From contig JBBSCG010000001.1 of the NCBI GenBank assembly GCA_038250515.1, forward strand, positions 25,155-89,154: a stretch of DNA of 64,000 bases, read 5' to 3'. The position numbers and the translations under genes were made by a program. Every line of letters starts with the position of its first letter. Position 1 is the stretch's first letter. The notes below the pieces were generated by a model, which did no database searches, was not told the origin of the DNA, and was given only the letters and a program-made list of their open reading frames with translations. This document shows, one piece after another, positions 1 through 12,815 of this stretch. The stretch is from Candidatus Limnocylindria bacterium (GTDB taxonomy: Bacteria > Chloroflexota > Limnocylindria > QHBO01).

Positions 1-333
1 CTGGTCTTCCCGCTCGGCTCCGCGCTGGTGATGCCGGACTGGTACATCAACGCGGCGCGGGCTCTGCCGCCGTGGAACTACAACTTCCAGTTCCCGCAAC
101 CGCCACAGGGCCATCGTGAGGCGCTGCTCGAGGTGAGCGCCATGAAGCTGATCGCCGGCGTCGCGCTGGCCGCCGCCGCGGGCCTCTTCGCGATCTTCGG
201 TCGGGATCGCCTTGGCCCGTGGCTATCCGGCGTCGTGGCGATGCATCGAGGCGATCAACAGGGCGGCTCCGGCGAGGACGAGGAGGACGGGCCAGAGCCT
301 GCCCCAGGCGATGACCGGCAGATAGTTCCGTAG
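1..333 (+). CDS. C-terminal part of an unidentified, probably membrane, protein that continues from upstream of the window
   Basis: Frame 1 is open from nt 1 and reads LVFPLGSALVMPDWYINAARALPPW...MKLIAGVALAAAAGLFAIFG (a TM-like segment). It overlaps the convergent PspC gene by about 110 nt, so the exact 3' end is uncertain. Confidence 0.3.
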   Translation: MVFPLGSALVMPDWYINAARALPPWNYNFQFPQPPQGHREALLEVSAMKLIAGVALAAAAGLFAIFGRDRLGPWLSGVVAMHRGDQQGGSGEDEEDGPEPAPGDDRQIVP

Positions 334-669
334 CAGGAAGTAGACGCCGAGCCCGATCAGCACAAGCCCGAAGATGAGCCGCATGTTGCCATCGCCGTGG
401 TCGGTACTCATGAACGGCCGTTGCTCGTCGGTGACATCGGGCTCACCGGAGGAAACGCCCTGGGCTGGCGCCCACGTACCGCGGGGTGCCTCGGCAACGA
501 CGATCCACATCACCACGTAGACCAGCAGGAAGAGCCCGCCGGTGACGAAGATCAGGATCGCCCAGACGATGCGCACCAGCGCGGGATCGATGTTCAGGTA
601 GTCCGCCACTCCACCGGCGACCCCGGCGATGACGTGCTCCGTTCGCGACCGATACAGACGTCCGCTCAT
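223..669 (-). CDS. PspC-domain membrane protein
   Basis: The N-terminus SGRLYRSRTEHVIAGVAGGVADYLNIDPALVRIVWAILIF is a typical PspC domain and is followed by TM helices. A GGAGG RBS lies 6 nt upstream of the internal ATG (M6), so the start is set at 669. Confidence 0.7.
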   Translation of the reverse strand: MSGRLYRSRTEHVIAGVAGGVADYLNIDPALVRIVWAILIFVTGGLFLLVYVVMWIVVAEAPRGTWAPAQGVSSGEPDVTDEQRPFMSTDHGDGNMRLIFGLVLIGLGVYFLLRNYLPVIAWGRLWPVLLVLAGAALLIASMHRHDAG

Positions 670-943
670 TGGCAGCCTCCCCATGGGTTCAGCGTGAAGC
701 TCGCCGCATTGCCGTCCATCGACAGCGTCGTTCGCTGCGTGGCGGCGGCGTAGCTCGATGACCGCCAGGTCGTGTCATTGATCGACCCCAGACCACTCTC
801 AGATTGTGGGTGAAAGCGACGCTGTTAGCCGCCAACGCTGCCGAGCAGCAAGGGACCTGCGGCGACCGGGCAGTGTATCTTCCCACTTAGCGCGGCGCGG
901 CCGGTGGGAGCGTGTGCGACATCTACCACCACAGGGGGACTTC

Positions 944-3241
944 ATGCGGCACCCGCGGCTCGTCCTGGCGATCTTCGTCCTGTCCGGCGCTGCCGGATTG
1001 ATGTACGAGGTGGTCTGGTCACGCCAGCTCGTGCTCGTCTTCGGCAATACGACCCAGGCCGTCTCCACGATCCTCACCGGCTTCTTCGGCGGAATGGCGG
1101 TCGGGAGCTTCGTCGGCGGCCGGGTCGCTGATCGCGTCCACTCCCCGCTACGGCTCTACGGCGTCATCGAGGTGGCGCTCGTGGGCGTCGTCCTCGCGAC
1201 GCCGGTCACCTTCCAGCTCCTCCACGAGGTCTACCGGGGCGCCTACCCCTCGCTGGAACGGAGTCCCGGACTGGTCGCTCTTCTCCGCTTCGGGCTGGCG
1301 ATTCTCGCCCTCTCGCCGGCAACGATCCTCATGGGCGCGACCCTTCCCGCGCTGACGCGGTCCTTGAGCGGTGGCGCTCACCTGTCGCGCGCGTTCGGCC
1401 GCCTCTACGCCGCCAACACCGGCGGCGCCATCATCGGAGCGCTCGCGGCCGGCGTCGTTCTGATCGAGGTGTTGGGTCTGACCGGTACGCTCGTGATCGC
1501 CGCCGCGTGTTCCGGAAGCGCTGGCCTGGTCGCCCTCTGGCTCGCCCGGGAGCGCTTTCGGGGAGCGACCCCCGTGGCGGAGGCATCGGAGTTTCGGGCG
1601 ATCGGCGGCTCCGCGCCGCGCCCGACGCTGGCGCTCGGACTCGCATTCGTTTCCGGGCTGACCTCCCTCGGCTATCAGGTTCTCTGGACCCGCCTCCTGT
1701 CGTCGGGGACCGGTAACTCGACGTACGTCTTCACGCTCATCCTGGCGACCTTCCTGCTCGGCATCGCGCTCGGGGCGGTGGTCTTCTCGGCCATACGGCG
1801 TCGGGTGGGGCGGTCGATCGGCCTCATCGCCATCGCCCAGATTCTCGCCGGAGCGCTTGCCATGCTCGGCCTCACGCTGGTCATCAACAGGCCCGAGACG
1901 CTTGCGCCCGCCGAAGCACTGAGATCGGTCGAGGAGAGCATCTGGCCCATCCTCGTCGTGGTGCTGCCCGCAACCATTGTCATGGGGTTCACGTTTCCGG
2001 CCTCGTCGGCCCTGCTCGGAGACGATCCGAAGCGGCGGGCCGCCAGCGCGGGCAGCCTCCTCGCCGCAAACACGCTCGGAGCGATTGTCGCCACCTTCGC
2101 CATCCCGTTCGTGGTCATTCCCCGCATCGGCTCACCCCACGCAGTCGCGCTGCTTGCGCTCACCAACGTCGCCGTGGGACTGCTCCTCATCGCCCTCGCA
2201 AGTGCCATCCCGCCGCTGCGCCGGGTTCTGGGCAGCGTCGTTGTCCTCGCGGTCGCGCTGGCAATCGTTGTCCTGATCGCGGTGCCAGGTGCTCTGATGG
2301 ACCCGAGCGAAGTTCGGATTCGAGCCCTGGGTGCGAAGGTCTTCGCCTCGGCCGAGGACGAGATCGCCTCGGTCCAGGCTGGTCGGCTTGGCCCGCGCAG
2401 CCGGCTCTGGGTGGCAGGCACGTCGATGACGGCGCTCACCGTTGACGCGAAGCTGATGACGGTCCTGCCGCTCATGCTGCGACCACAGTCGAAGAGCGCG
2501 CTCGTGGTGGCATTCGGCATGGGCTCCGCCTTCCGCACGGCCCTCATCGCCGGCCTGAGGGCGGATGCCGTGGAGCTCGTACCGTCCGTCCCGAAGATGT
2601 TCGGGTACTTCTACCCCGACGCGAGGAGGGTCCGGGCGGATCCGAACGGCCGGATCATCATTGCCGACGGTCGCAACTACATGGACCTCACGACCGAGCG
2701 CTACGACATCATCGTGACCGATCCCCCGCCGCCTATCCAGAGTTCTGGCGTCTCGGTCATCTCCTCGCTCGAGTACTACCGGGCCGGCCACGCGCGTCTC
2801 AATCCCGGAGGCGTCATGATGCAATGGACCCCGTTCGGGGCGACCGTCGACGAGCTCCGCGCCCACCTCCGAACCTTCCGTGCGGTCTTTCCCCACGTCA
2901 CGATCGTCTTCGGGCCGGGCCGGTACGGCATCTACATGCTCGGATCGGACGCCCCTATGGTCTTCAGCGGCGAGGCGATCCGCGTCGTCCTTGCCCATCC
3001 CGGCGTGCTGAAGGAGATCTCGTCGGCCTATGACTCGCCGCAGCGGACGGTCGACGGCTGGGCCGCCCTGATCCCGTCACTCGTCTGGATCGCGGACGAC
3101 CAGGTGAATCGGTTCACCGGGGACGGCCCGATGATCAGCGACGACCACCCCCTCCCGGAGTATTTCGTCCTTCGCCAAATCTTCGGAAAAAGATCGGCGC
3201 TCGCCACGCGGGCAGAGCTCCTGCGCCTCGCCGGCCCGTAA
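944..3241 (+). CDS. Fused spermidine-synthase-like protein: N-terminal polytopic membrane domain plus C-terminal aminopropyltransferase/methyltransferase fold
   Basis: The N-terminus MYEVVWSRQLVLVFGNTTQAVSTILTGFFGGMAVGSF is followed by about 12 hydrophobic helices. The C-terminal region (GMGSAFRTAL...IIIADGRNYM...YDIIVTDPPPP...NPGGVMMQW) matches the spermidine synthase fold. The start is taken at ATG 944 (M47 of the ORF). Confidence 0.7.
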   Translation: MRHPRLVLAIFVLSGAAGLMYEVVWSRQLVLVFGNTTQAVSTILTGFFGGMAVGSFVGGRVADRVHSPLRLYGVIEVALVGVVLATPVTFQLLHEVYRGAYPSLERSPGLVALLRFGLAILALSPATILMGATLPALTRSLSGGAHLSRAFGRLYAANTGGAIIGALAAGVVLIEVLGLTGTLVIAAACSGSAGLVALWLARERFRGATPVAEASEFRAIGGSAPRPTLALGLAFVSGLTSLGYQVLWTRLLSSGTGNSTYVFTLILATFLLGIALGAVVFSAIRRRVGRSIGLIAIAQILAGALAMLGLTLVINRPETLAPAEALRSVEESIWPILVVVLPATIVMGFTFPASSALLGDDPKRRAASAGSLLAANTLGAIVATFAIPFVVIPRIGSPHAVALLALTNVAVGLLLIALASAIPPLRRVLGSVVVLAVALAIVVLIAVPGALMDPSEVRIRALGAKVFASAEDEIASVQAGRLGPRSRLWVAGTSMTALTVDAKLMTVLPLMLRPQSKSALVVAFGMGSAFRTALIAGLRADAVELVPSVPKMFGYFYPDARRVRADPNGRIIIADGRNYMDLTTERYDIIVTDPPPPIQSSGVSVISSLEYYRAGHARLNPGGVMMQWTPFGATVDELRAHLRTFRAVFPHVTIVFGPGRYGIYMLGSDAPMVFSGEAIRVVLAHPGVLKEISSAYDSPQRTVDGWAALIPSLVWIADDQVNRFTGDGPMISDDHPLPEYFVLRQIFGKRSALATRAELLRLAGP

Positions 3242-3700
3242 CCTTTTGGACCGTCCAGGCCCTCGATGTCGAGTACTTCTCGAACGCCTGCCTCGCACTT
3301 CTTGGCGAGCAATTCGTAAATCGGAGCATTGTCGCGATACCAGCAGACAAGTTCCTTTTTGCTTCGGGTGCCAACTCGACGATGTGCAGGAACTCATAGA
3401 CCATCCTGACTCATGCATGCGAGAGGTCGTAGCTCCAGGCCGCGGGTTACTCGTTCCAGACTGCGGACCAGCTGTTCGAATTGGGCGATCGCATCCACGA
3501 CCTCAAGCTATCGGGTCGCACCCCCTAGATAGACTTCGAACTCAAACCGTACCTCGTCCAGCTCTTTGTTTCGGACACAGCCGACGTCATTCAGCTGGGG
3601 ATCAAAGAAGCCTTCGCGAAAGTCATGCGGCGCAGAAAGTGATTTACCGCCGGGCCGTTCGGTCTCGGCGCAGGGCGCTATCGTCGACCATCCTCAATGT
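3241..3700 (-). pseudogene. Decayed ORF remnant on the minus strand inside a lower-GC island; family not recognised
   Basis: A single minus-strand frame reads ...HDFREGFFDPQLNDVGCVRNKELDEVRFEFEVYLGGATR(TAG)LEVVDAIAQFEQLVRSLERVTRGLELRPLACMSQDGL(TGA)VPAHRRVGTRSKKELVCWYRDNAPIYELLAKKCEAGVREVLDIEGLDG. There is no start codon and two in-frame stops. Local GC is about 47-58%, against about 68% in the flanks. Confidence 0.3.
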
Positions 3701-4580
3701 GGCATCGCTCGCATTCCCGAACCCTCTGCGGAGCGTCATGCGCGTCGGGAACGGACGTCACTGGGCTTCGCGCCTTGCAGTTGTCGCTGATCCGCGCGTT
3801 GTACATGGCAGAACGCGACGTCGCGATCGACCTCGCGCTTGGCTTTGGCCTACTGATGAACCACCGACGATGGGTGACCCAGTCTTCGTGAATTACCTGG
3901 TGAAGCGGTCGGAGGTCCGAGACAGCATCGATTCTGAGATCCGACGCATTGCGGGAGTGCCGGCGACGTCGCCGCCCACGTGGGTCGATGATGCCTCGGC
4001 CCTTGAGCTTGCGATCGCCGCGCACGGCGCCCGACTCAGACCCGCCCAGTCACGCCGCAGGATCGGATGCACGCAAGCGGCGGCGGCGATGATCTCGACG
4101 CTTCTGATTCCGTCGTGGATCTTGCTCAAGGCACACCGACGAGACGGATGAACGTTGGACGCCCACGGGCGTTGTGGAACCGGCGGGCCGGACCGGCAAC
4201 TTCCCCCGTTCTATCTACTACCCCGAGCTCGTGTTGACATCGGCCGGCATGCGGTCGTAGACTCCCGCGGCGGCCGGTTTGCGCTTCGACGCAAGGACCT
4301 GTTGCCCGGCGAACCCGACTCTAACGAGGAACCAACGAAACGGCCATGAATCTCCTCATCTGCGCGTTCCCGCGCTGCAGTACGGCGCCTATCAACGCCG
4401 TCGCTGACGGGAGATCTGTGCCCACTTCGAGCTGACGCAGCGGCGGCAGGGCCGCCAAGCAGACGCCACGAGCCGTGGGCCGGATCAGGTCCACGGTTTC
4501 TTGTTGCCACCAGCGCAAGGAGCCGCGGACCGCGGAGGTCCAGCGGCTCGTTTTGTTTCTCTACCAATCCAACCCGCGAG

Positions 4581-5486
4581 GTGCCAGCCATGGCCTGCCT
4601 ACTTGAACAATTGAAGACCGATGAGCAGACGGCACCCGCCGTCTTGCCCAGGCCTCAGGCGGACGCCGATGCCGTGCCGGCGCTGCTGATCGAGCACGTG
4701 ACCAAGCGCTTCACTGTCGGCCGCAAGCGCAAGCAGGTGACGGCGGTACATGACGTGTCGCTGCGCATCCAGCGTGGCGAGATCTACGGCGTGCTCGGTG
4801 CGAATGGCAGCGGCAAGTCGACGCTGATCCGGTTGGTGAGCACGCTGCTCACGCTTGACGGGGGGCGTGTCGAGGTGTTCGGCCACGACATCGAGCGCGA
4901 CGAGATGGCGGTCAAGCAGCTCATCAACCGGGTGAGTGTGGACGCGGCCTTCTTCAAAAAGCTCTCGCCGCACGAGAACCTGACGTACGCAGCGCGGCTG
5001 TACGGGATGGATGCCCGACTGGCAAAGGCGGAGGCGATCCGCATCCTGGCGCGGCTGGGCATCGGCGAGAAGCGGCTGAACCGTCCACTCGAGCAGATGA
5101 GCCGGGGGATGCAGCAGAAAGTCGCGATCGCGCGAGCGCTGCTGACGAGTCCAACGCTGCTGCTTCTGGACGAGCCGACGACCGGCCTCGATCCGCGCTC
5201 GAAGCTGGACGTGCAGTCGTTCATCGAGGAGCTGCGGGACAGCCACGACGCCACGATGGTGCTGACCACGCACGACCTCGACGAAGCGGATCGGCTGTGC
5301 GACCGGATCGCGCTGATCAACGACGGTCGCCTGGTTGCAGACGACACGCCGGCTGGGCTCAAGGCGATGGTCGCCGAGCGCTTCGGCCTGCCACCGACGC
5401 TGGAAAGCGTGTTCATGAGGTTCACCGGGCGCTCGCTCGACGACGACCTCGGTGAAAACGACAACAACGAAGACGACACCGAATGA
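4581..5486 (+). CDS. ABC transporter ATP-binding protein (ABC-2/DrrA-like)
   Basis: Walker A GANGSGKST, Q-loop, signature-like MSRGMQQK, Walker B LLLLDEPTTGLD and H-loop TTHD are all present. Confidence 0.85.
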   Translation: MPAMACLLEQLKTDEQTAPAVLPRPQADADAVPALLIEHVTKRFTVGRKRKQVTAVHDVSLRIQRGEIYGVLGANGSGKSTLIRLVSTLLTLDGGRVEVFGHDIERDEMAVKQLINRVSVDAAFFKKLSPHENLTYAARLYGMDARLAKAEAIRILARLGIGEKRLNRPLEQMSRGMQQKVAIARALLTSPTLLLLDEPTTGLDPRSKLDVQSFIEELRDSHDATMVLTTHDLDEADRLCDRIALINDGRLVADDTPAGLKAMVAERFGLPPTLESVFMRFTGRSLDDDLGENDNNEDDTE

Positions 5487-5503
5487 GAAAGGAGGTGAGA
5501 ACC

Positions 5504-5698
5504 ATGATGATCCTGCCGAGCCCGCAGGACCTGGTGCGTGCGAACGAGGAGCGCGTGGTGCAGCTGCACCACGAGATCCACGCGCCGCACAGCCAGGACA
5601 CGCGTCGCCAGGTGCGACGTTGGGTCGGGCGCCAGATGGTGCGCTGGGGCGCACGCCTGGCGGCGGACCCGTCTCTCGAGCCGGCTCGGTCCCTCTAG
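5504..5698 (+). CDS. Small hydrophilic hypothetical protein (64 aa) between the ABC ATPase and permease genes
   Basis: A perfect SD (AAGGAGGTG, 5489-5497) lies 6 nt before tandem ATG ATG. The ORF is MMILPSPQDLVRANEERVVQLHHEIHAPHSQDTRRQVRRWVGRQMVRWGARLAADPSLEPARSL. It starts about 15 nt after the ATPase stop and ends 48 nt before the permease start. Confidence 0.45.
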   Translation: MMILPSPQDLVRANEERVVQLHHEIHAPHSQDTRRQVRRWVGRQMVRWGARLAADPSLEPARSL

Positions 5699-5746
5699 CC
5701 AGGGGCCGGGGTCGGCGTCGCATGACACTGACAGGAGCTATTCGAC

Positions 5747-6547
5747 ATGACACTGATGGCCCGCGAGCTGAAGGCGAGCTACGCCTTCGTCGAGCGGAAC
5801 TTCAACCTGACCAGGCGCTACTGGGGCTGGGAGGTCGCCTTCCTGGTCTATGCCGTGGCTGGCGCGCTCGCCGTGTCGCTCATCGGTCGAGATCAGGCGA
5901 ACGATCGTCTGCTGCTGACCCTGGTGATCGGTGCCGTCTTCTGGAACTACCTGTCGGTCGTCTTCAGCTTCATCGCCGAGACGGTTGCCTGGGAACGTTG
6001 GGAGGGGACGCTCGAGTACACCTTCATGGCACCTGTGCGCCGATACACGCAGATGGTCGGCTCGACGCTGTACGCGATTGCCTACGGGCTCGTCCACACG
6101 GTGGTCGTGCTGGCCGTGCTGGCTCTCTTCTTCGAACTCGATCTGTCACGCGCCAACTTCGCCACGGCCGCGGTCTTCATGGTCCTCGGCTCGGCGAGCT
6201 TCGTCGGGATCGGGATCATGACCGCCATCCTGCCGCTGATGTACGTGGAGCGCGGAGCACAGATGACGTTTGTGCTCCAATCGGTGCTGCTGCTGGTCAG
6301 CGGCGTCTACTACAGCGTTGACGTGCTTCCCGGCTGGATGCAGGTCATCTCCCACTTCTCGCCGGCGACCTACGTCCTCGACGGGGTTCGCGCCGGCCTG
6401 ATCGACGGTGCCGGCACCGGCGCATTGCTCGGCGATGTCTGGCCCCTGCTGCTGATGGGCGTGATCTTCATACCCCTCGGCCTGTGGGCCTTCTCGAAGG
6501 CCGAGCGTTACGCCAAGCGCACCGGCAAGCTGAAGCGTGTTGGATGA
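5747..6547 (+). CDS. ABC-2 family transporter permease
   Basis: About 6 TM helices, with the ABC-2 signature region RYWGWEVAFLVYAVAGALAV. It lies immediately downstream of the ATPase. RBS CAGGAG precedes the ATG. Confidence 0.75.
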   Translation: MTLMARELKASYAFVERNFNLTRRYWGWEVAFLVYAVAGALAVSLIGRDQANDRLLLTLVIGAVFWNYLSVVFSFIAETVAWERWEGTLEYTFMAPVRRYTQMVGSTLYAIAYGLVHTVVVLAVLALFFELDLSRANFATAAVFMVLGSASFVGIGIMTAILPLMYVERGAQMTFVLQSVLLLVSGVYYSVDVLPGWMQVISHFSPATYVLDGVRAGLIDGAGTGALLGDVWPLLLMGVIFIPLGLWAFSKAERYAKRTGKLKRVG

Positions 6548-6624
6548 TCCACGAGACGGATAGCCGGGGTGGCTCTCGGGCGCGCGATCACTCCGAATCT
6601 GACCACGAAAGGTTTGACTGATCG

Positions 6625-7647
6625 ATGACTCAGGACATGATGGCCAATGCGAAGGCCGCGCCTCTCGGTCTGCATCTCTCGCACCCTGATGCCAAGCCAG
6701 CCGTCACCGCGGGGCTCATGGCGCCCATCGCCAATGCCTGCAATGTGGCTGACGGGATTGATGAGCTGACCACCGCCGAGGAGCTGGCCAACTGGCTCGC
6801 CAAGGCCGGCGGTCCGCATTTCGATCCGGTGGGGGATGTGCAGCTCGCCCGCGTCGGCCACGAGCTGGTCGGCTATGCGTGGACGGATTGGGTCGACACG
6901 ACCGATGGACTGCGCGAGTATCGGCTGGGCGGCCACGTCCATCCTGAGTTCCAGCGCCGGGGGATTGGGACCCGGCTGCTGCGGTGGGGCGAGGAGCACT
7001 CCCGCCAGCATCTCGCATCGCATCCCTCGGAGTTGCCGGCTGTCTTCGGCAGCTGGGCGTCGGAGCGACGCATCGCCAAGCTCGTCATGCTCGAGAAGGA
7101 GGGCTACGCGCCGGCGCGCTGGTTCTTCGAGATGCTCCGCCCGAACCTCGACGACATCGATCTGCCGCCGATGCCGGTCGGTCTCGAGGTGCGCCCACTC
7201 GGTGGTGACCCGGTCGTGTGGCGTCAGCTGCTCACGGCCGATGCCGAGGCATTTCAGGACCACTGGGGAGGCTTCGTCGCTGATGATGCCGAGTTCGCCG
7301 AGTGGACCCACAGCCCAAGCTTCGAGCCGTCCCTATTCGTGGTCGCCTGGGACGGCGACGAGATCGCGGGTGCCGTGGAGAATTCCATCCCGAAGGCGGA
7401 GAACGTCCAGTTCGCCCGCGCGCGAGGTTGGCTCGACAGCGTCTTCGTTCGTCGCTCGTGGCGACGTCGCGGTCTCGGCGCTGCGCTGGTGGCGCGGGCG
7501 CTCGGGGTGCTGCGCGATGCGGGCATGACGGAAGCGATGCTGGGAGTCGACAGCGACAACCCGACCGGAGCATTGGGTCTCTACGAGCGAGCGGGCTTCA
7601 CGGTCCACGCGCGCTCCAAGGCGTTCCGCAAGTCAATGAGCTCATGA
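6625..7647 (+). CDS. mshD: Tandem-GNAT acetyltransferase, mycothiol synthase (MshD)-like
   Basis: Two GNAT cores are present. VHPEFQRRGIGTRLL aligns with MshD VHPQSRRRGIGTAMA. VFVRRSWRRRGLGAAL and LGVDSDNPTGALGLYERAGFTV align with the MshD C-terminal domain (LYVESDN...YQSLGFT). Confidence 0.55.
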   Translation: MTQDMMANAKAAPLGLHLSHPDAKPAVTAGLMAPIANACNVADGIDELTTAEELANWLAKAGGPHFDPVGDVQLARVGHELVGYAWTDWVDTTDGLREYRLGGHVHPEFQRRGIGTRLLRWGEEHSRQHLASHPSELPAVFGSWASERRIAKLVMLEKEGYAPARWFFEMLRPNLDDIDLPPMPVGLEVRPLGGDPVVWRQLLTADAEAFQDHWGGFVADDAEFAEWTHSPSFEPSLFVVAWDGDEIAGAVENSIPKAENVQFARARGWLDSVFVRRSWRRRGLGAALVARALGVLRDAGMTEAMLGVDSDNPTGALGLYERAGFTVHARSKAFRKSMSS

Positions 7648-8841
7648 GGGCGGCGGCAGCCGGACGTAGTGGATCTCACTGTGCACGCCGGTGAAGTCGG
7701 TTGCCGCCACCCAGGCAAATAGGTTCCCGGCGAGGCTGGGCCGCATGAAACCGGCCTGTCCCGTTGGGTCGGCCTGTTCGACCGTCACTTCCTCGTTGGT
7801 TTCCAGATCGTAGACGGCGAGCCGGGACCAGTTCGACGGCTCAGCGGTCAGGAACCGGGGCCCGATATTCGGAGCGGCAAGGAAGTACCCAGTCTGCTCG
7901 TGCATGAAGTCGAGGCGGTGCACCTCGCCGGTCGATAGCGAGTAGCGCTCCAGTTGTCCCCAGTTGTTGGCGTTGTACGCCTTCGGCGCAGCCTTCCATA
8001 TCACCGTGTCATGTCCGATCGCTGGCTGGGACGCCTCGCCATCCCCGTCAAGCTGTCGAGGCGAGGCGTCTGGATCGCCGATATCCAGGAGATACACATG
8101 TCGCTCGCCGTCAACCGAGTCGCTCGCGTACTCGACCGTTCCGTACACGAGTCGATCGCCGTCGAGCGACGGATACCAGTACTCAATCCTGTCGAAGTCG
8201 GATTTTGCGATCACTGTCTCTTTCAGTGTGTGCAGGTCGACGGCGACCAGCTGGCTCGTCGCGGACGCGCCGTCGATCGTCTGGAGCGCATAGACCAGGT
8301 AGTCTTCGCTGATCGCCGGCTGCGGGAGGAGGCCAGGTGAATCAATCGGCCGTCGAGCCGATGCGAGCTTCACGGGCAGCGCACCGGGCTTCTCGAGGTA
8401 GAGGAAGTTCCAGCTGATGAAGCCGTCGCCATCTGGACCGCTCTCTGAGAATGCGAGCCGGTCGCCGTGCATTGCTGGCAGTTGCACACCCCGGTCGCGT
8501 TTCGGGTTCTTGAAGACGAGCTGGATGCCCGCTGCGCCAGGTTTCCAGCGGTAGATGTCGGGGCTCGAAACGCCCGTTGGGTCGCCGGTTGCCCAGCCGA
8601 TCCACGTCCCGTCGGTGATCACCGCACCGACAGCACTTTCCGTCGGCACACGCCCGATCGTAGGCTTGACGGTTGATGGCGTCCCCGCCGGTGATGACGT
8701 CGTTGACCGGATCGGCAGCTCGCTACCACGCGATTCGAGAGGGTTACGAGGCACGCTGGTGGGCTGCGAGGTAGCCACGCAGCTCGAAAGCAGGAGCAGC
8801 GCCGCGGCGCCCAATGCGCCGCGGCTGATCATGCGGCTCAC
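7642..8841 (-). CDS. Lipoprotein with beta-propeller (TolB/WD40-like) repeats
   Basis: Signal peptide plus lipobox MSRMISRGALGAAALLLLSSC. The repeat-rich body has recurring D/G-rich blades (LDGDRLVYGT, LDGDGEASQPAIGHDTVIW). Confidence 0.5.
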   Translation of the reverse strand: MSRMISRGALGAAALLLLSSCVATSQPTSVPRNPLESRGSELPIRSTTSSPAGTPSTVKPTIGRVPTESAVGAVITDGTWIGWATGDPTGVSSPDIYRWKPGAAGIQLVFKNPKRDRGVQLPAMHGDRLAFSESGPDGDGFISWNFLYLEKPGALPVKLASARRPIDSPGLLPQPAISEDYLVYALQTIDGASATSQLVAVDLHTLKETVIAKSDFDRIEYWYPSLDGDRLVYGTVEYASDSVDGERHVYLLDIGDPDASPRQLDGDGEASQPAIGHDTVIWKAAPKAYNANNWGQLERYSLSTGEVHRLDFMHEQTGYFLAAPNIGPRFLTAEPSNWSRLAVYDLETNEEVTVEQADPTGQAGFMRPSLAGNLFAWVAATDFTGVHSEIHYVRLPPPS

Positions 8842-8847
8842 CTGTCG

Positions 8848-9777
8848 CTACCAGACCACACGCGCGGTATGCCACGCGTTCAGCTTCCACATCTTCAGAC
8901 TCGAATCGATGTATGACCCGGTGCCACCCCCCTGTCGGTCCGACGAATCGTTGTAGTAGACCTTCGCGTTGTCCGTACCGTCCCAGCGCCCGTTGTAGCC
9001 CCGGATCGCGAGCCAATGCATCACCGTCACACCCGCTGGGATTGGCTTCCAACTGGTAAGCCGGAGTGACGAGCTCGTCATCTTTACCGGTGTCCCGAAG
9101 GCCATGTGCCACTGCTGCGTGTCCGTCACGATCTTCGAGTGCCATGCGGCGCCCGTGCCAGTCGGGACGACGGCGTAGATGAAGTTGGATGGCAGCCGGC
9201 CAAGCTCATTCAGGCCATTCTTGAGCATGTAGGCGTTGGTCGAGCCGATGGTGTTCGTGTTCTCCCATCGCGCGGCGGCATCGTTGTACCAGAGCAGCCG
9301 TGTTCCGATGGCGCTCTGCTTCCTGTAGTTGGTGCCGGCACTCTCGCCGTCGATGGTGCTGCTGTAGAAGTCGCGCGACCGATTGATGATCACCTGGGCG
9401 GTCGCCGGCCCGCAGTAGTAGCCGTTGTTCTGGCGGCGCGCATAGGTCAGCAGGCTGTAGCTGGTGGGTGCGCAAGCGGTGGTCGACGTCGTCGTGTCCG
9501 CGCCATCGGCTGGCGATGCCGTCTGACAGAACGCTGACGGGCTGACGCTGTCGGAAGACTTTGCGCTGGACGTGGCCTCGATGCCCTCAGCCATGGCCAG
9601 CCTTTGATCGATGCTCTGCTGCTCCTCGGCGGTGGGCGGGATCCAGGGCTCGTCGGCCGGTGGACCGCCGCCGATAACCTTCGGGCCGGTGCTCGGTTTG
9701 CCTGCGGCGGCTGGACTGACGACGGAGACGGCCGTGAGCGCGGCCAGCAGCATCGCAAGCATGCCTCGGTGAACCAT
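8848..9777 (-). CDS. Secreted papain-fold (peptidase C39-like) cysteine peptidase candidate
   Basis: Signal peptide MVHRGMLAMLLAALTAVSVVSPAAAG. The Cys motif QNNGYYCGPATAQVIIN and the downstream His in VTVMHWLAIRGYNG resemble the C39/papain-like catalytic dyad. Confidence 0.4.
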   Translation of the reverse strand: MVHRGMLAMLLAALTAVSVVSPAAAGKPSTGPKVIGGGPPADEPWIPPTAEEQQSIDQRLAMAEGIEATSSAKSSDSVSPSAFCQTASPADGADTTTSTTACAPTSYSLLTYARRQNNGYYCGPATAQVIINRSRDFYSSTIDGESAGTNYRKQSAIGTRLLWYNDAAARWENTNTIGSTNAYMLKNGLNELGRLPSNFIYAVVPTGTGAAWHSKIVTDTQQWHMAFGTPVKMTSSSLRLTSWKPIPAGVTVMHWLAIRGYNGRWDGTDNAKVYYNDSSDRQGGGTGSYIDSSLKMWKLNAWHTARVVW

Positions 9778-10003
9778 GAGTGTGTTCCTCCCCTGTGACT
9801 GCCGGCGCCTTGATTGGCGTGCCGCCGATGCTAGTCAAGGGGCCTTACCAGCCAATTGCGCCGCCGCTTACCGGGCGAAGCGAGCACCCGAACGACAGCG
9901 GGTCATCGCTTATCAGCGGGAGGTCCGGCGCAGCTGGGCGGAGGAGCATGGGGCAGAGCCTAGCGACGCTCGCTTACCAGGCGCTTACTGCCGAGGCGCG
10001 TCG

Positions 10004-11158
10004 CTACGTGCGCGTGATATCGCCGGCAGCCACAGCGCGGTCACGGATCTCTCGATAGAAGTCGACGATGCGCTCGGTGACGCGATCCCACGAGTATTCG
10101 GGCGCCCGTTCGCGTCCCGCATCGCCCATGCGCTGGCGCAGATCGGCATCATTGGCCAGGGTGTAGAGCGCCGCGGCCAGTGCGCGTGGGTTGCGCGGCT
10201 CGACCAGCAGGCCCTGCACCCCGCGCTGCACGACCTGCTTGTAGCCATGGATATCGGAGGCGACGATCGGCACGCCGGCCGCCATCGCTTCGAGCAGCAC
10301 CACGCCAAAGCTCTCCTGTCCGGTGGCTGGCGCGCTGAAGATGTCGGCGGAGGCGAAGTAGCGTGCCTTCTCTTCATCAGTCACCCAGCCGAGGAACTCG
10401 ACGTCGCGGATGCCTCGCAGCCCGATATAGCGGCGATACTCGCGGAGCTTGGCGCCGGTGCCCACGATGAGCAGCCGAGCATCGACATGACGCTTGCGCA
10501 GACGGTGGTACGCCTTGAGCAGGTGGATCAGCCCCTTCCGCTCCTCGAAGCGGCCGACGAACAGGATGTTGAGCGTTCCGTCACGCAGCGCTTCGTAGGG
10601 CTGGGCATGGGCGAATCGGTCCAGATCGACGCCATTGGGGATGATGCGGTAGTCGCCGGGAAAGTAACGGCTGATGAAGTGCCGCGCCGCGCCGCTCACG
10701 GCGATGCGGCCGTGCAGCCGGCTGGCGAGCCCGCCTGCAAAGCGCCGGCCGACCCAGTACGACGGGCTGAAGCCGCCGAAGGCATGAAACGTCGCAATGT
10801 TGACTGTGCGAGAGGCCTCGAGCACCGTCGGCGACAGGAATGGCACGAACGGCTCATGGAAGTGCAGGATGTCGAACCGATGCTCGTCGAGCACCTCGCG
10901 GGCCTGCTGCTTGAAGCGCCAGCCGAGCGTCACCCGACCGACGCTGCCGTTGGTCGGGAAGGCCCATCCGGTCCCCAGGCGCAGGATGTGGCCTTCGTCC
11001 TCGCGTTCCTTGCCGTACTTGCTGGTGATGATCCAGGCGTCGTGGCCAAGCCGTCGCATGGCGTCGTAGGTGAAGCGAACGTGCTCGTTGACCCCGCCGG
11101 GATGCGGGTAGCCGTACGGGCTGACGATCCCGATTTTCAGCGGCTCACGCTCGGTCAT
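10004..11158 (-). CDS. pimA: GT4 glycosyltransferase, phosphatidylinositol mannosyltransferase PimA-like
   Basis: LKIGIVSPYGYPHPGGVNEHV...FHEPF...GRIAVSGAARHF...ESFGVVLLEAMAAGVPIVASD aligns along its full length with mycobacterial PimA. The start is at ATG 11158 (M58 of the ORF), which overlaps the PHP gene stop as ATGA. Confidence 0.75.
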   Translation of the reverse strand: MTEREPLKIGIVSPYGYPHPGGVNEHVRFTYDAMRRLGHDAWIITSKYGKEREDEGHILRLGTGWAFPTNGSVGRVTLGWRFKQQAREVLDEHRFDILHFHEPFVPFLSPTVLEASRTVNIATFHAFGGFSPSYWVGRRFAGGLASRLHGRIAVSGAARHFISRYFPGDYRIIPNGVDLDRFAHAQPYEALRDGTLNILFVGRFEERKGLIHLLKAYHRLRKRHVDARLLIVGTGAKLREYRRYIGLRGIRDVEFLGWVTDEEKARYFASADIFSAPATGQESFGVVLLEAMAAGVPIVASDIHGYKQVVQRGVQGLLVEPRNPRALAAALYTLANDADLRQRMGDAGRERAPEYSWDRVTERIVDFYREIRDRAVAAGDITRT

Positions 11159-11928
11159 CGCCACTCTCCTGTGGGCCGCAGAGTATGGCGCACATGGCGT
11201 GCCTTGGCCGCAAGCTGCCGACGGTACACGGACAGGTTGTGGCCGTGGCTCCAGAACGCTCCGGCGGCCTCTGTCCGGGACTCGGCCACGGCGTTCCGGT
11301 AGGCAGCCGCGTCGGCATCGGCGTACCACGTCCAGGCGGTTCCGACTCCTTCGAGAACGTGCGCATCCGAGTTGCCGACGCCCGGCAGCCGCAGCAGCTC
11401 CTCGTTGAGTCGCAGTCGCGCGCGGGCGCGCAGCCGGCCGGCGGTGCTGGGGTTGAACAGCTCGATCGCGTCGAGGTGGTGCGCGGGATCATCATCGGCC
11501 TGCAGGTCGCGCAGGGTTCGCTCGCCGATGCTCGGGATGAGCGTGGCCATGGGATGCGCGGCGATGGCGATGCCGCCCTGCGCGTGCACGCGCTCCAGCG
11601 TCTCGGTGAGCGGCCGCAGCGCAGGGATGCGCTCGGTGAGGAACAGGGCCAGAAGGTGGCCGCGTCGCGTGGTGATCTCCTCGCCGACCACCAGGTCGAA
11701 GCTGTAGCCTCCCGCGGTGTGCAGCTCGGCCGCGCGCTGCGCCCCGTCGATGCGCTCGTGATCGGTGATGGCGATGAGGTCGAGATCGGTCCGCAGCTCG
11801 ACCCAGTCGAGGAGTGCTCCGATGGTCGCGGTGCCGTCGGAGTAGAGCGTGTGCAGGTGCATGTCGGCCTTGCCCCGCGGACCGCCGTTGCGCGGCGGAC
11901 GGCCCGTCGCGGCCGATGCCGCGTTCAT
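11155..11928 (-). CDS. PHP-domain metal-dependent phosphoesterase
   Basis: MHLHTLYSDGTATIGALLDWV...IAITDHERIDGAQRA...AIAAHPMA matches the PHP His motifs. The start is taken at M15 (11928), which gives an ATGA overlap with the upstream acyltransferase stop. Confidence 0.6.
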   Translation of the reverse strand: MNAASAATGRPPRNGGPRGKADMHLHTLYSDGTATIGALLDWVELRTDLDLIAITDHERIDGAQRAAELHTAGGYSFDLVVGEEITTRRGHLLALFLTERIPALRPLTETLERVHAQGGIAIAAHPMATLIPSIGERTLRDLQADDDPAHHLDAIELFNPSTAGRLRARARLRLNEELLRLPGVGNSDAHVLEGVGTAWTWYADADAAAYRNAVAESRTEAAGAFWSHGHNLSVYRRQLAAKARHVRHTLRPTGEWR

Positions 11929-12815
11929 CCGTCGGCCTCCGGCCAGAAGCGTTGGAATGCGCCGAACCACTGCTCGGGTGCGGTCGCGATGTCCGACTCC
12001 ATCCGCGCCGCGATCCGGCGTGTCAGCGCCTCGATGTCGGCGTGTCGATCACCGGTCGGGGTCCACTCCAGCTGATGGGCACGGACCTCGAAGCGTTCTG
12101 GCCCGATGCGCAGACTGCGGCCTACGATCACCGCGGCACCGGTCAGCACGGCCAGCGTGGCCGGACCCTGGGGCATGGTGACCCGATGTCCGAAGAACTC
12201 GACCGGCAGCCCATCGCCGGACAGGTCACGCTCCGCGACCAGGCCGACCACTCCCCCGCGGCGCAGCGCGTCGATCATCGGGCGGCGGGCCCGCGACAGG
12301 GGCACGACGTCGACCCCGCGGCTGCTGCCGCGTCGCGCCCGGAGGAACTCGAACAGCACGGCCGGCTTGATCTCCTCGACCGGGGCCACAGCGCGGAAGC
12401 CATGCGCCGCGAGATACGCACCGAACGGCTCGAAGTTGCCGAGATGGGCACTGACCAGCACGGTCGGGCCGGCGCGCAGGATCGCTTCGAACGTCGCCCA
12501 ACCAGGAACGGTCACGATCTCGCCCACCCGTTCGAGCGGGTAGTGTGGGCCGCGCAGCAGCTCGAGGTAGTAGCGGGCGTGGGCCACAAATGCGGCGCGG
12601 ACCAGGCGTCGCAGCGAGGATCCCGACGTGGGAGGGCCGCTTGCCGCGCAGACGCGGGTGAGGTTCGCGGCAACCAGGGCGCGCCGCTGCGGAGCGAATC
12701 GATACCACAGCCGGCCGGCCAGGTCGGCAATGGCGTACGCCACGCTGCGCGGCAGCCGGGCCATTACGAGGTCAGCGATGTTCAGCGCCGTCCGCAGCGG
12801 GACCTCGGAAAGCAT
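11925..12815 (-). CDS. HtrB/LpxL-family lipid acyltransferase (PIM acyltransferase PatA-like), copy 1
   Basis: LPRSVAYAIADLAGRLWYRFAPQRRALVAANL...GPTVLVSAHLGNFE fits the LPLAT / lauroyl acyltransferase family. It sits in the operon between pimA and pgsA as patA does in mycobacteria. Confidence 0.65.
   Translation of the reverse strand: MLSEVPLRTALNIADLVMARLPRSVAYAIADLAGRLWYRFAPQRRALVAANLTRVCAASGPPTSGSSLRRLVRAAFVAHARYYLELLRGPHYPLERVGEIVTVPGWATFEAILRAGPTVLVSAHLGNFEPFGAYLAAHGFRAVAPVEEIKPAVLFEFLRARRGSSRGVDVVPLSRARRPMIDALRRGGVVGLVAERDLSGDGLPVEFFGHRVTMPQGPATLAVLTGAAVIVGRSLRIGPERFEVRAHQLEWTPTGDRHADIEALTRRIAARMESDIATAPEQWFGAFQRFWPEADG

What the first reader, a model, noticed from the sequence alone, without database searches (positions are those of the whole stretch)
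3241..4580. Lower-GC 1.3-kb island with decayed ORFs; one reading frame carries in-frame TAG and TGA between protein-like segments
The island lies between the spermidine-synthase-like gene and the ABC transporter. GC falls to about 47-58% and no intact gene is evident. On the minus strand, one frame reads three protein-like segments: ...FFDPQLNDVGCVRNKELDEVRFEFEVYLGGATR, then LEVVDAIAQFEQLVRSLERVTRGLELRPLACMSQDGL, then VPAHRRVGTRSKKELVCWYRDNAPIYELLAKKCEAGVREVLDIEGLDG. The segments are separated by TAG (+ strand 3508-3510) and TGA (+ strand 3394-3396). The most likely explanation is a horizontally acquired gene, such as a toxin-antitoxin or mobile-element remnant, that has been pseudogenised. 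The plus strand also has a 93-aa ORF (3870-4151) of unknown function. A sigma70-like TTGACA-18-TAGACT sits at 4234-4263.
Basis: seen in the sequence. Interest (0 to 1): 0.5.

Follow-up and report, generated by a model that had tools for sequence, protein, structure and literature searches.

The report
Truncated alarmone-synthetase gene remnant
The low-GC patch is the dead, cut-off front end of a foreign RelA/SpoT-type small alarmone synthetase gene, and the rest of the "island" is orphan spacer plus the likely control region of the neighbouring ABC exporter, so the finding is ordinary.

Summary

Only 3242-3660 is really low in GC (55.8%, against 67.8% for the window). It is the most deviant 420-nt stretch in the 64 kb.

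Segment 3 (3250-3414, minus strand) is homologous to the N-terminal helix of a subfamily of RelA/SpoT-domain small alarmone synthetases (SAS), which are about 360 aa long:
- tblastn against plasmids gave E=0.01.
- A profile built without that hit scores 14.6 bits. The best decoy score is -1.4.
- hhalign gives 96% probability.

Homology stops 8-10 nt from the stop codon of the upstream gene. The catalytic PF04607 domain is nowhere in the window. The stub also carries the TGA six codons after its probable ATG. It is therefore a 3'-truncated, inactivated remnant of a horizontally acquired gene.

Segments 1-2 keep codon periodicity in the same register (p=7e-6) but have no detectable homologue.

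The right-hand third (4234-4589) holds a promoter-like site and two tandem terminator-like hairpins directly before the ABC-2 operon. It is probably that operon's leader.

An independent assembly is 100% identical across the whole region.

The parts
3250..3414 (-). Stub of a RelA/SpoT-type small alarmone synthetase gene. It runs from the probable start ATG (3412-3414) to ...EVLDIEGLDG and reads MSQDGL*VPAHRRVGTRSKKELVCWYRDNAPIYELLAKKCEAGVREVLDIEGLDG. The core motif is at 3256-3342.
   Evidence: tblastn hit on the N-terminus of a B. cereus plasmid RelA/SpoT protein, 55% identity over 29 aa, E=0.01. A profile of 6 other family members finds this site as the only hit in the six-frame window, at 14.6 bits; the next best is -3.1, and decoys reach at most -1.4. 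Identity to 6 metagenomic full-length members is 35-53%. hhalign probability is 96.4%.
3394..3396 (-). In-frame TGA, the seventh codon of the stub.
3242..3249 (.). Truncation junction. Homology to the family ends here, 1-10 nt after the TAA (3239-3241) of the upstream 765-aa gene.
   Evidence: The family motif Y..I.SR.K..S..K and everything after it are absent. The C-terminus of the upstream protein is conserved in relatives up to 3235.
3397..3693 (-). It is interrupted by TAG 3508-3510. Identity unknown.
   Evidence: 3-base periodicity p=7e-6, in the same register as the stub. No homologue in any search. The only in-frame starts are GTG 3496-3498 and ATG 3412-3414.
3242..3660 (.). Low-GC patch (55.8%), the compositional outlier of the 64-kb window.
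3246..4151 (+). Open frame of 301 codons. Probably not a gene.
   Evidence: Host codon-usage score is at or below 0 except 3840-3960, where it is +0.1 to +0.3 bits per codon against about +0.5 for real genes. Over 3242-3660 its third codon position is the lowest-GC phase. It forms a singleton cluster with no Pfam hit.
4234..4263 (+). Sigma-70-like promoter match, TTGACA-18-TAGACT.
   Evidence: 10 of 12 positions; 0.3 expected in shuffles
4347..4436 (+). ORF of 29 codons (MNLLICAFPRCSTAPINAVADGRSVPTSS) inside the putative leader. Possible leader peptide; speculative.
   Evidence: Read from the sequence. Its Shine-Dalgarno spacing is poor.
4473..4506 (+). Terminator-like hairpin T1: a 9-bp G+C-rich stem and 6-nt loop, followed by UUUCUUGUUG.
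   Evidence: dG -24.6 kcal/mol, z -4.35, 0 of 200 shuffles fold as well. Also found by my own scan.
4520..4562 (+). Terminator-like hairpin T2: a 12-bp stem with one bulge and a 5-nt loop, followed by UUUUGUUUCUCU.
   Evidence: dG -25.8 kcal/mol, z -3.85. The whole of 4440-4566 gives z -5.5.
4578..4592 (+). Shine-Dalgarno GAGG (4578-4581) and the probable ATG (4590) of the ABC-2 transporter ATPase.
   Evidence: Sequence. Pfam ABC_tran and ABC2_membrane for the two genes.

Best explanation
A fragment of foreign, lower-GC DNA once lay downstream of the 765-aa membrane gene. It carried a stand-alone RelA/SpoT-domain small alarmone synthetase (SAS) gene on the minus strand. This gene type makes (p)ppGpp-like nucleotides or pyrophosphorylates tRNA, and it often acts as a toxin or defence effector.

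A deletion removed the gene from about codon 56 onward, up to within 10 nt of the neighbour's stop codon. What remains is the first helix (3250-3414), with a TGA at codon 7. In front of it is about 300 nt of coding-like sequence with a TAG. That sequence is either an N-terminal extension or a former upstream partner gene.

Nothing here can make a synthetase, so the patch is an inert remnant.

The remainder of the gap is not part of the remnant. 3661-4233 is orphan spacer with host-like GC. 4234-4589 is most likely the promoter and a roughly 300-nt leader, with two tandem intrinsic terminators, through which the ABC-2 exporter operon is transcribed.

Shown: the homology of the stub, the absence of the catalytic domain, the stops, the compositional anomaly, and the hairpins. 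Inferred: horizontal origin, deletion as the truncating event, and the leader/attenuator role.
For: Stub homology:
- tblastn against plasmids, E=0.01, to an annotated RelA/SpoT protein.
- That protein and its relatives are genuine SAS: PF04607, and RelQ/YjbM/RelP are the best PDB matches.
- An N-terminal profile built without the B. cereus sequence scores 14.6 bits at 3256-3345. The maximum elsewhere is -3.1 in the window, -2.2 in 0.99 M residues of related genomes and -1.4 in 12.8 M shuffled residues.
- The family invariants W, Y, Y and L-A are all present.
- hhalign gives probability 96.4%, E 1e-9.

Truncation: the full-family HMM aligns only at model positions 7-43 of 181, and nowhere else in the six-frame window.

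Foreign origin:
- The patch is the lowest-GC 420 nt of the window.
- All recovered relatives lie in DNA of 30-47% GC.
- The relatives match PADLOC PDC-S33.
- One relative lies between a SIR2-like gene and an integrase.
- 29 related genomes have no homologue of this DNA near the orthologous gene.

Sequence reliability: an independent assembly is identical.

Leader.
Against: - The homologous stretch is only about 30-35 residues. phmmer of the whole pseudo-protein against 1.84 billion representatives gave nothing at E<=1e-3, and the word-indexed search also gave nothing.
- The family used for the profile was reached through the hit itself, so the profile test is not fully independent.
- Segments 1-2 are unexplained.
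- Periodicity alone fits the plus-strand frame equally well.
- No island boundaries were found: no repeats, tRNA or integrase.
- No closely related genome was available that shows either the intact gene or the empty site.
Confidence: 0.75

Rival explanations
1. The long plus-strand open frame (3246 or 3417 to 4151, or at least its last 93 codons) is a real orphan protein gene, and the minus-strand reading is its antisense shadow.
For: - 301 codons without a stop. From phase-specific composition I estimate a probability of roughly 0.002 per frame (my calculation).
- One automatic annotation called a 244-aa product.
- 3870-4151 has the GC3>GC1>GC2 order (0.73/0.64/0.55, p=0.035) and a slightly positive host codon score.
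- It has a hydrophobic C-terminal stretch.
Against: - Over 3242-3660 its third codon position is the lowest-GC phase (0.39-0.44), the opposite of every real gene in this 68% GC genome.
- The codon score there is -0.4 to -1.2 bits per codon.
- The product is Arg-rich and looks like off-frame translation.
- It is a singleton cluster with no Pfam, PHROG, NCBIfam or PADLOC hit.
- tblastn finds nothing.
- It does not account for the SAS match on the other strand.
Confidence: 0.1
2. The similarity to alarmone synthetases is a chance match. The patch is simply an old non-coding spacer, or an unrecognisable remnant of some other gene, possibly on the plus strand.
For: - The match is short.
- The discovery E-value was only 0.01, after about eight searches.
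- Exhaustive phmmer found nothing at E<=1e-3.
- The plus frame in the same register has an equally plausible GC1/GC2/GC3 pattern (0.57/0.39/0.75) and ends in a stop just where the periodicity fades.
Against: - The match falls on the family's invariant positions.
- It scores 16 bits above the best of 12.8 M decoy residues.
- hhalign gives 96%.
- Six further members from an independent collection align at 35-53% identity.
- The plus reading has 3-4 stops and no homologue.
Confidence: 0.1
3. The TAG and TGA are read through or recoded, and the frame encodes a working protein.
For: Two different stops occur in one otherwise open, periodic frame with no frameshift.
Against: - The frame has no usable start before segment 1.
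- It lacks the catalytic domain.
- It runs on into the antisense of the neighbouring gene, with no proper end until 3028.
- Flanking host genes use TGA and TAA as ordinary stops.
- Rfam finds no SECIS-like or other element.
Confidence: 0.02
4. The junction at 3241-3250 is an assembly chimera that joins two unrelated molecules.
For: There is an abrupt change of composition exactly at a gene end.
Against: A contig from a different assembler (Logan, SRR19962013) is 100% identical over window 1-4907 and spans the junction and the whole gap. The right side continues into host-like sequence.
Confidence: 0.03

Closest known systems
Stand-alone RelA/SpoT-domain proteins of about 345-370 aa: an N-terminal SAS domain (PF04607) plus a C-terminal region of about 170 aa. 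Examples are the B. cereus plasmid fragment WP_237391494.1, A. seifertii 'RelA/SpoT' (P0005) and metagenomic loci L032-L037. They match the PADLOC candidate model PDC-S33.
   Same: The stub shares the subfamily-specific N-terminal helix WY..N.P.Y..LA.K.E...RE.LD..G(I/L), at 35-55% identity.
   Different: Only the first 55 or so codons exist. The stub carries a TGA. Its GC is 53%, against 30-47% in the relatives. It possibly has a longer N-terminal region. The catalytic and C-terminal domains are absent.
Housekeeping small alarmone synthetases RelQ/YjbM and RelP/YwaC (PDB 2be3, 5dec, 6fgk).
   Same: They are the nearest solved structures to the full-length relatives of the stub (E 1e-11 to 5e-6).
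   Different: They are about 210-230 aa long, without the C-terminal extension. The stub does not match them directly.
toxSAS toxin-antitoxin modules (FaRel, FaRel2, PhRel, PhRel2, CapRel; PMC7229694, PMC11782079).
   Same: They are RelA/SpoT-fold effectors that are often horizontally mobile and tied to antiphage defence. A neighbouring small gene or a fused domain acts as the antitoxin. The coding-like remnant just upstream of the stub could be such a partner.
   Different: No sequence match of the stub or of segments 1-2 to any toxSAS or antitoxin was obtained. PDB searches with the relatives did not return CapRel or FaRel2 at E<=0.01. Membership is untested, and toxicity cannot be assessed from a stub.
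Ribosome- or ligand-dependent transcription attenuators in leaders of exporter operons, for example the bmrB leader of B. subtilis bmrCD (from my own knowledge, not checked here).
   Same: The layout is promoter, leader of about 200 nt with a short ORF, strong terminator hairpin(s), then SD and start of an ABC exporter 27 nt later.
   Different: No antiterminator was demonstrated. There is no Rfam family and no conservation data. The short ORF has a poor SD.

Membership tests
RelA/SpoT-domain small alarmone synthetase (this 360-aa subfamily) | Subfamily N-terminal helix with invariant W-Y, Y and L-A ahead of the synthetase core | tested here: met
   Profile score 14.6 bits against -1.4 or lower in decoys. 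Alignment. hhalign 96.4%.
RelA/SpoT-domain small alarmone synthetase (this 360-aa subfamily) | RelA_SpoT catalytic domain PF04607 (SR.K..S, D.AG(I/V)R, E(I/V)Q(I/V)RT motifs) | tested here: not met
   No Pfam hit for the reading. The full-family HMM aligns only at positions 7-43 of 181, and nowhere else in the six-frame window.
RelA/SpoT-domain small alarmone synthetase (this 360-aa subfamily) | Uninterrupted ORF with its own start and stop | tested here: not met
   TGA at codon 7. There is no in-frame start between the TGA and the WY motif. The frame runs on into the antisense of the neighbouring gene.
toxSAS type II toxin-antitoxin module | Adjacent small antitoxin gene, or fused antitoxin domain, with recognisable homology | tested here: inconclusive
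   Coding-like periodicity upstream of the stub, but no homologue in Pfam, NCBIfam, PADLOC, PHROGs, plasmids, phages, the protein libraries or the flanks of family loci.
toxSAS type II toxin-antitoxin module | Toxicity of the synthetase and its neutralisation by the partner | not testable with these tools
   Requires expression experiments, and the gene is truncated in any case.
Integrated mobile element / genomic island | Compositional deviation from the host | tested here: met
   3242-3660 has GC 0.558 against 0.678, the lowest of 1272 windows.
Integrated mobile element / genomic island | Boundaries: flanking direct or inverted repeats, a tRNA target, an integrase or transposase | tested here: not met
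   Only short repeats at chance level. No tRNA in 1-12000. No integrase or transposase match in any frame tested. No second copy in the window.
Intrinsic (Rho-independent) terminator / attenuator leader | G+C-rich hairpin followed immediately by a U-tract on the transcribed strand | tested here: met
   T1 4473-4506 and T2 4520-4562, with z -4.35 and -3.85.
Intrinsic (Rho-independent) terminator / attenuator leader | Mutually exclusive antiterminator structure, and conservation upstream of orthologous operons | not tested
   Only a 6-nt complement (GCCCAC, 4421-4426) to the T1 5' arm was seen by eye. No syntenic relatives were available. No Rfam match.

The most novel reading that the evidence does not exclude
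The right-hand third of the gap (4234-4589) is an undescribed cis-regulatory leader that gates an ABC-2 exporter operon in Limnocylindria. It would comprise a promoter, a sensor region of about 200 nt with a 29-codon ORF, and two tandem terminators. It would work by ribosome- or ligand-dependent attenuation. Separately, segments 1-2 could be the relic of an unknown partner (an antitoxin or sensor) of this SAS subfamily.
Probability: 0.25. Interest if true: 0.35.

Novelty: new member of a known kind. Interest (0 to 1): 0.15.

Why it matters
It matters little beyond annotation. The result shows that a soil Limnocylindria (Chloroflexota) genome once acquired, and then lost, a RelA/SpoT-type effector gene of a family otherwise seen in low-GC bacteria. 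It warns that the 244-aa 'gene' called here by one pipeline is probably spurious. It also points to a possible attenuator in front of an ABC-2 exporter, which could be tested with transcriptomics.

Tried and rejected
Profile and RNA libraries:
- Pfam, PHROGs, NCBIfam and PADLOC on the minus reading, the plus reading, ORF93, ORF301 and the 126-aa minus ORF gave nothing. The only output was a Thioesterase hit at E=0.16, which I disregarded.
- Rfam at E<=1 over 2800-5000 gave nothing.
- No tRNA was found.

Protein searches:
- The search for homologous proteins on the minus reading found none.
- The same search on the plus reading plus ORF301 found none. That search hit its 8000-candidate ceiling. 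It also failed to return the identical Logan product P0007. I therefore treat it as a weak negative.
- Exhaustive phmmer against 1.84 billion representatives gave 0 hits at E<=1e-3.

Nucleotide and collection scans:
- blastn and tblastn against plasmids and phages produced only the RelA/SpoT hit.
- Viral and metagenome scans with the single pseudo-protein found none.
- A viral scan with alignment A2 found none. Alignment A1 was too diverse to use.

Locus comparison: 29 related genomes share the upstream gene at 45-75% aa identity. None has island homology, and none has any other window gene within 10 kb. Presence or absence of the island in relatives could therefore not be judged.

Repeats: no flanking or second-copy repeats were found.

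Structure and folding:
- Single-sequence AlphaFold of the pseudo-protein gave pLDDT 36, which is uninformative, so no fold search was run.
- RNA folding of 3236-3660 and 4264-4470 gave no excess structure.

Other points:
- hhalign extended the stub alignment into the antisense of the neighbouring gene. I rejected this as chance, because confidence was low and that DNA encodes a conserved protein C-terminus.
- Exact-product look-ups for the ABC ATPase and the permease found nothing on record.
At E<=1e-5 only MFS_1 hits.
Full report
**Observation**

The membrane gene runs 944-3241 on the plus strand. The ABC ATPase gene has its probable ATG at 4590, preceded by a GAGG Shine-Dalgarno at 4578-4581.

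On the minus strand one frame reads segment 1 (3511-3609), TAG (3508-3510), segment 2 (3397-3507), TGA (3394-3396) and segment 3 (3250-3393).

GC composition:

| Region | GC |
|---|---|
| Whole window | 0.678 |
| 3241-4580 | 0.619 |
| 3242-3660 | 0.558 (minimum 0.49 per 100 nt) |
| 3661-4589 | 0.64-0.65 |

The stretch 3242-3660 is the lowest of all 420-nt windows in the 64 kb (mean 0.678, sd 0.030). The low-GC part is therefore about 420 bp, not 1.3 kb.

The 93-aa plus ORF exists, but it is the tail of a 301-codon open frame, 3246-4151. The TTGACA-18-TAGACT site at 4234-4263 is the only sigma-70-like match in 3000-4800, against 0.3 expected.

A Logan contig from run SRR19962013 is 100% identical to window 1-4907. 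The stops and the junction are therefore reproduced by a second assembly.

**Is the patch coding, and on which strand?**

GC by codon phase over 3397-3660 is 0.57/0.39/0.75 (chi-square p=7e-6), and 3242-3396 shows the same register. This is a coding signature, but a symmetric one. Both readings contain stops.

With the host's codon usage, no frame in the gap reaches the +0.5 bits per codon of real genes. The two mirror frames sit near 0, and the 93-aa ORF reaches +0.1 to +0.3 over only part of its length. Composition alone could not settle the strand. Homology was needed.

**Homology**

Most searches gave nothing for any reading: profile libraries, Rfam, tRNA, a word-indexed search of 5.8 billion proteins and an exhaustive phmmer search of 1.84 billion representatives.

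The one lead came from tblastn against plasmids. Residues ...ELVCWYRDNAPIYELLAKKCEAGVREV of segment 3 matched the N-terminus of an annotated RelA/SpoT-domain protein on a Bacillus cereus plasmid, at 55% identity over 29 aa, E=0.01.

That protein is a genuine small alarmone synthetase. Its relatives P0001-P0006 all carry PF04607. They share an N-terminal helix, WY..N..xY..LA.KVE.I...L, that lies ahead of the Pfam domain. This explains why Pfam saw nothing in the stub.

I tested the lead in four ways:
1. A 33-column profile of that helix, built without the B. cereus sequence, was run against the six-frame translation of the whole window.
   - The only hit was 3256-3345 on the minus strand, at 14.6 bits.
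   - The runner-up scored -3.1.
   - The best score was -2.2 in 0.99 M residues from 29 related genomes and -1.4 in 12.8 M shuffled residues.
2. A metagenome scan seeded with the motif returned six further loci, L032-L037.
   - They encode full-length proteins of 345-370 aa: an N-terminal SAS domain plus a C-terminal region of about 170 aa.
   - All lie in DNA of 30-47% GC.
   - The stub is 35-53% identical to each over 27-40 residues.
3. The family's invariant positions (W, Y, Y, L-A) are all present in the stub.
4. hhalign of the stub against a 10-member alignment gave 96.4% probability.

The caveat is that the family was reached through the original hit, so these tests are not fully independent. 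The homologous stretch is also short. I put the homology at roughly 0.8.

**Anatomy of the remnant**

Family members start 6-20 residues before the WY motif. In the window an ATG at 3412-3414 lies 24 codons before WY, giving MSQDGL*VPAHRRVGTRSKKELVCWY.... The TGA is therefore codon 7 of the probable gene. There is no other in-frame start between the TGA and WY.

After ...REVLDIEGL the family continues with Y..I.SR.K..S..K and the catalytic core. In the window the similarity stops at about 3249, which is 8-10 nt from the TAA of the upstream gene. The frame then runs on as an accidental open antisense frame to 3028.

A full-length family HMM aligns only at model positions 7-43 of 181, and nowhere else in the six-frame translation of the 64 kb. 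The gene is therefore 3'-truncated. About 55 of roughly 360 codons remain, and no enzyme can be made.

The C-terminus of the upstream protein is conserved in relatives right to its end. The deletion evidently stopped where selection on that gene begins; this is inference.

**Segments 1-2**

These segments keep the stub's reading register and a strong periodicity. They have no homologue anywhere, including the DNA upstream of seven family members. Apart from the ATG at 3412-3414, taken above as the stub's own start, their only in-frame start is the GTG at 3496-3498, just after the TAG.

They may be an N-terminal extension, since one member, P0006, has a long one. They may instead be the relic of a separate upstream gene, such as an antitoxin-like partner. 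This remains open. Single-sequence structure prediction was uninformative (pLDDT 36).

**What the family does**

The nearest solved structures to the full-length relatives are RelQ/YjbM and RelP/YwaC. NCBIfam gives only generic RelA/SpoT models, below their cut-offs. The relatives match the PADLOC candidate defence model PDC-S33 (E=5e-15). In L035 the gene lies between a SIR2-like gene and a tyrosine integrase.

RelA/SpoT-fold small synthetases are known to include toxins of toxin-antitoxin and antiphage systems (PMC7229694, PMC11782079). Membership of a toxSAS module was not demonstrated.

**The rest of the gap**

*3661-4233.* This stretch has host-like GC, no significant periodicity over 3661-3869, no homologues and no repeats.

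One pipeline called a 244-aa product from the long plus open frame. Several points argue against it being a gene:
- It is a singleton.
- Its third codon position is the lowest-GC phase across 3242-3660.
- Its host codon score is poor.

I regard it as probably spurious. Its last 93 codons are the only part with any coding character.

*4234-4589.* This stretch contains, in order:
- the promoter-like site at 4234-4263;
- a 29-codon ORF at 4347-4436;
- two strong hairpins, each followed by a U-tract on the plus strand.

| Hairpin | Coordinates | dG (kcal/mol) | z |
|---|---|---|---|
| T1 | 4473-4506 | -24.6 | -4.35 |
| T2 | 4520-4562 | -25.8 | -3.85 |

The region 4440-4566 as a whole gives z -5.5. 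A crude scan of both strands of the window found only 11 such structures, and these two are adjacent.

Only 27 nt separate the T2 tail from the ABC start codon. Transcription of the ABC-2 operon must therefore pass through both hairpins. That is the layout of an attenuator leader. This is inference: no antiterminator, Rfam family or conservation could be shown.

**Comparative genomics**

The host is a soil Chloroflexota of the Limnocylindria group. The best relatives of the upstream gene are at 45-75% aa identity. None of those 29 genomes has similarity to the gap. None has any other gene of this 64-kb window within 10 kb of the orthologue. Presence or absence of the island at this locus in relatives could therefore not be assessed.

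**Verdict**

The feature is an inert remnant of a known gene family. I rate its interest as low. The only point that might repay further work is the putative leader with tandem terminators in front of the ABC-2 exporter.

Noticed in passing
window 4234-4592 (+): A promoter-like site and a 29-codon ORF are followed by two tandem intrinsic-terminator-like hairpins (T1 4473-4506, T2 4520-4562). These end 27 nt before the ABC-2 ATPase start. The arrangement is a candidate attenuator leader and is not in Rfam.
   Followed up: partly
window 3316-3366 (+): A terminator-like hairpin (dG -14.4) followed by TTTTTGCTTC lies about 75-125 nt after the stop of the upstream 765-aa gene, inside the SAS stub on the opposite strand. 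It may serve as that gene's terminator, or it may be chance: the U-tract is the complement of the stub's Lys-Lys codons.
   Followed up: no
window 1-64000 versus L001-L029: Apart from the 765-aa MFS fusion gene itself, no gene of the 64-kb window is found within 10 kb of its orthologue in 29 related Chloroflexota/Limnocylindria genomes. Gene order is not conserved at 45-75% aa identity.
   Followed up: partly
window 3417-4151 (+) / L039 3757-4491: An automatic annotation of a Logan contig calls a 244-aa protein here (P0007, a singleton cluster with no Pfam hit). It was not returned by the homology search that used the same ORF as query, so that tool's negative result for this region is weak.
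   Followed up: partly
window 6509-10091 versus L038: A second Logan contig from the same run differs from the window at 5 of 3583 positions, whereas L039 is identical. This suggests strain-level polymorphism in the sample.
   Followed up: no
L035 1664-6788: A full-length member of the SAS subfamily sits between a SIR2-like gene and a tyrosine integrase in a 40% GC metagenomic contig, a context that looks like a defence or mobile island.
   Followed up: partly
window 3160-3220 (-): hhalign weakly aligns the antisense of the upstream gene's 3' end (ARVASADLFPKIWRRTKYSG) to the family's SRAK...K...KYS segment. I judged this to be chance, because that DNA encodes a conserved protein C-terminus.
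   Followed up: partly
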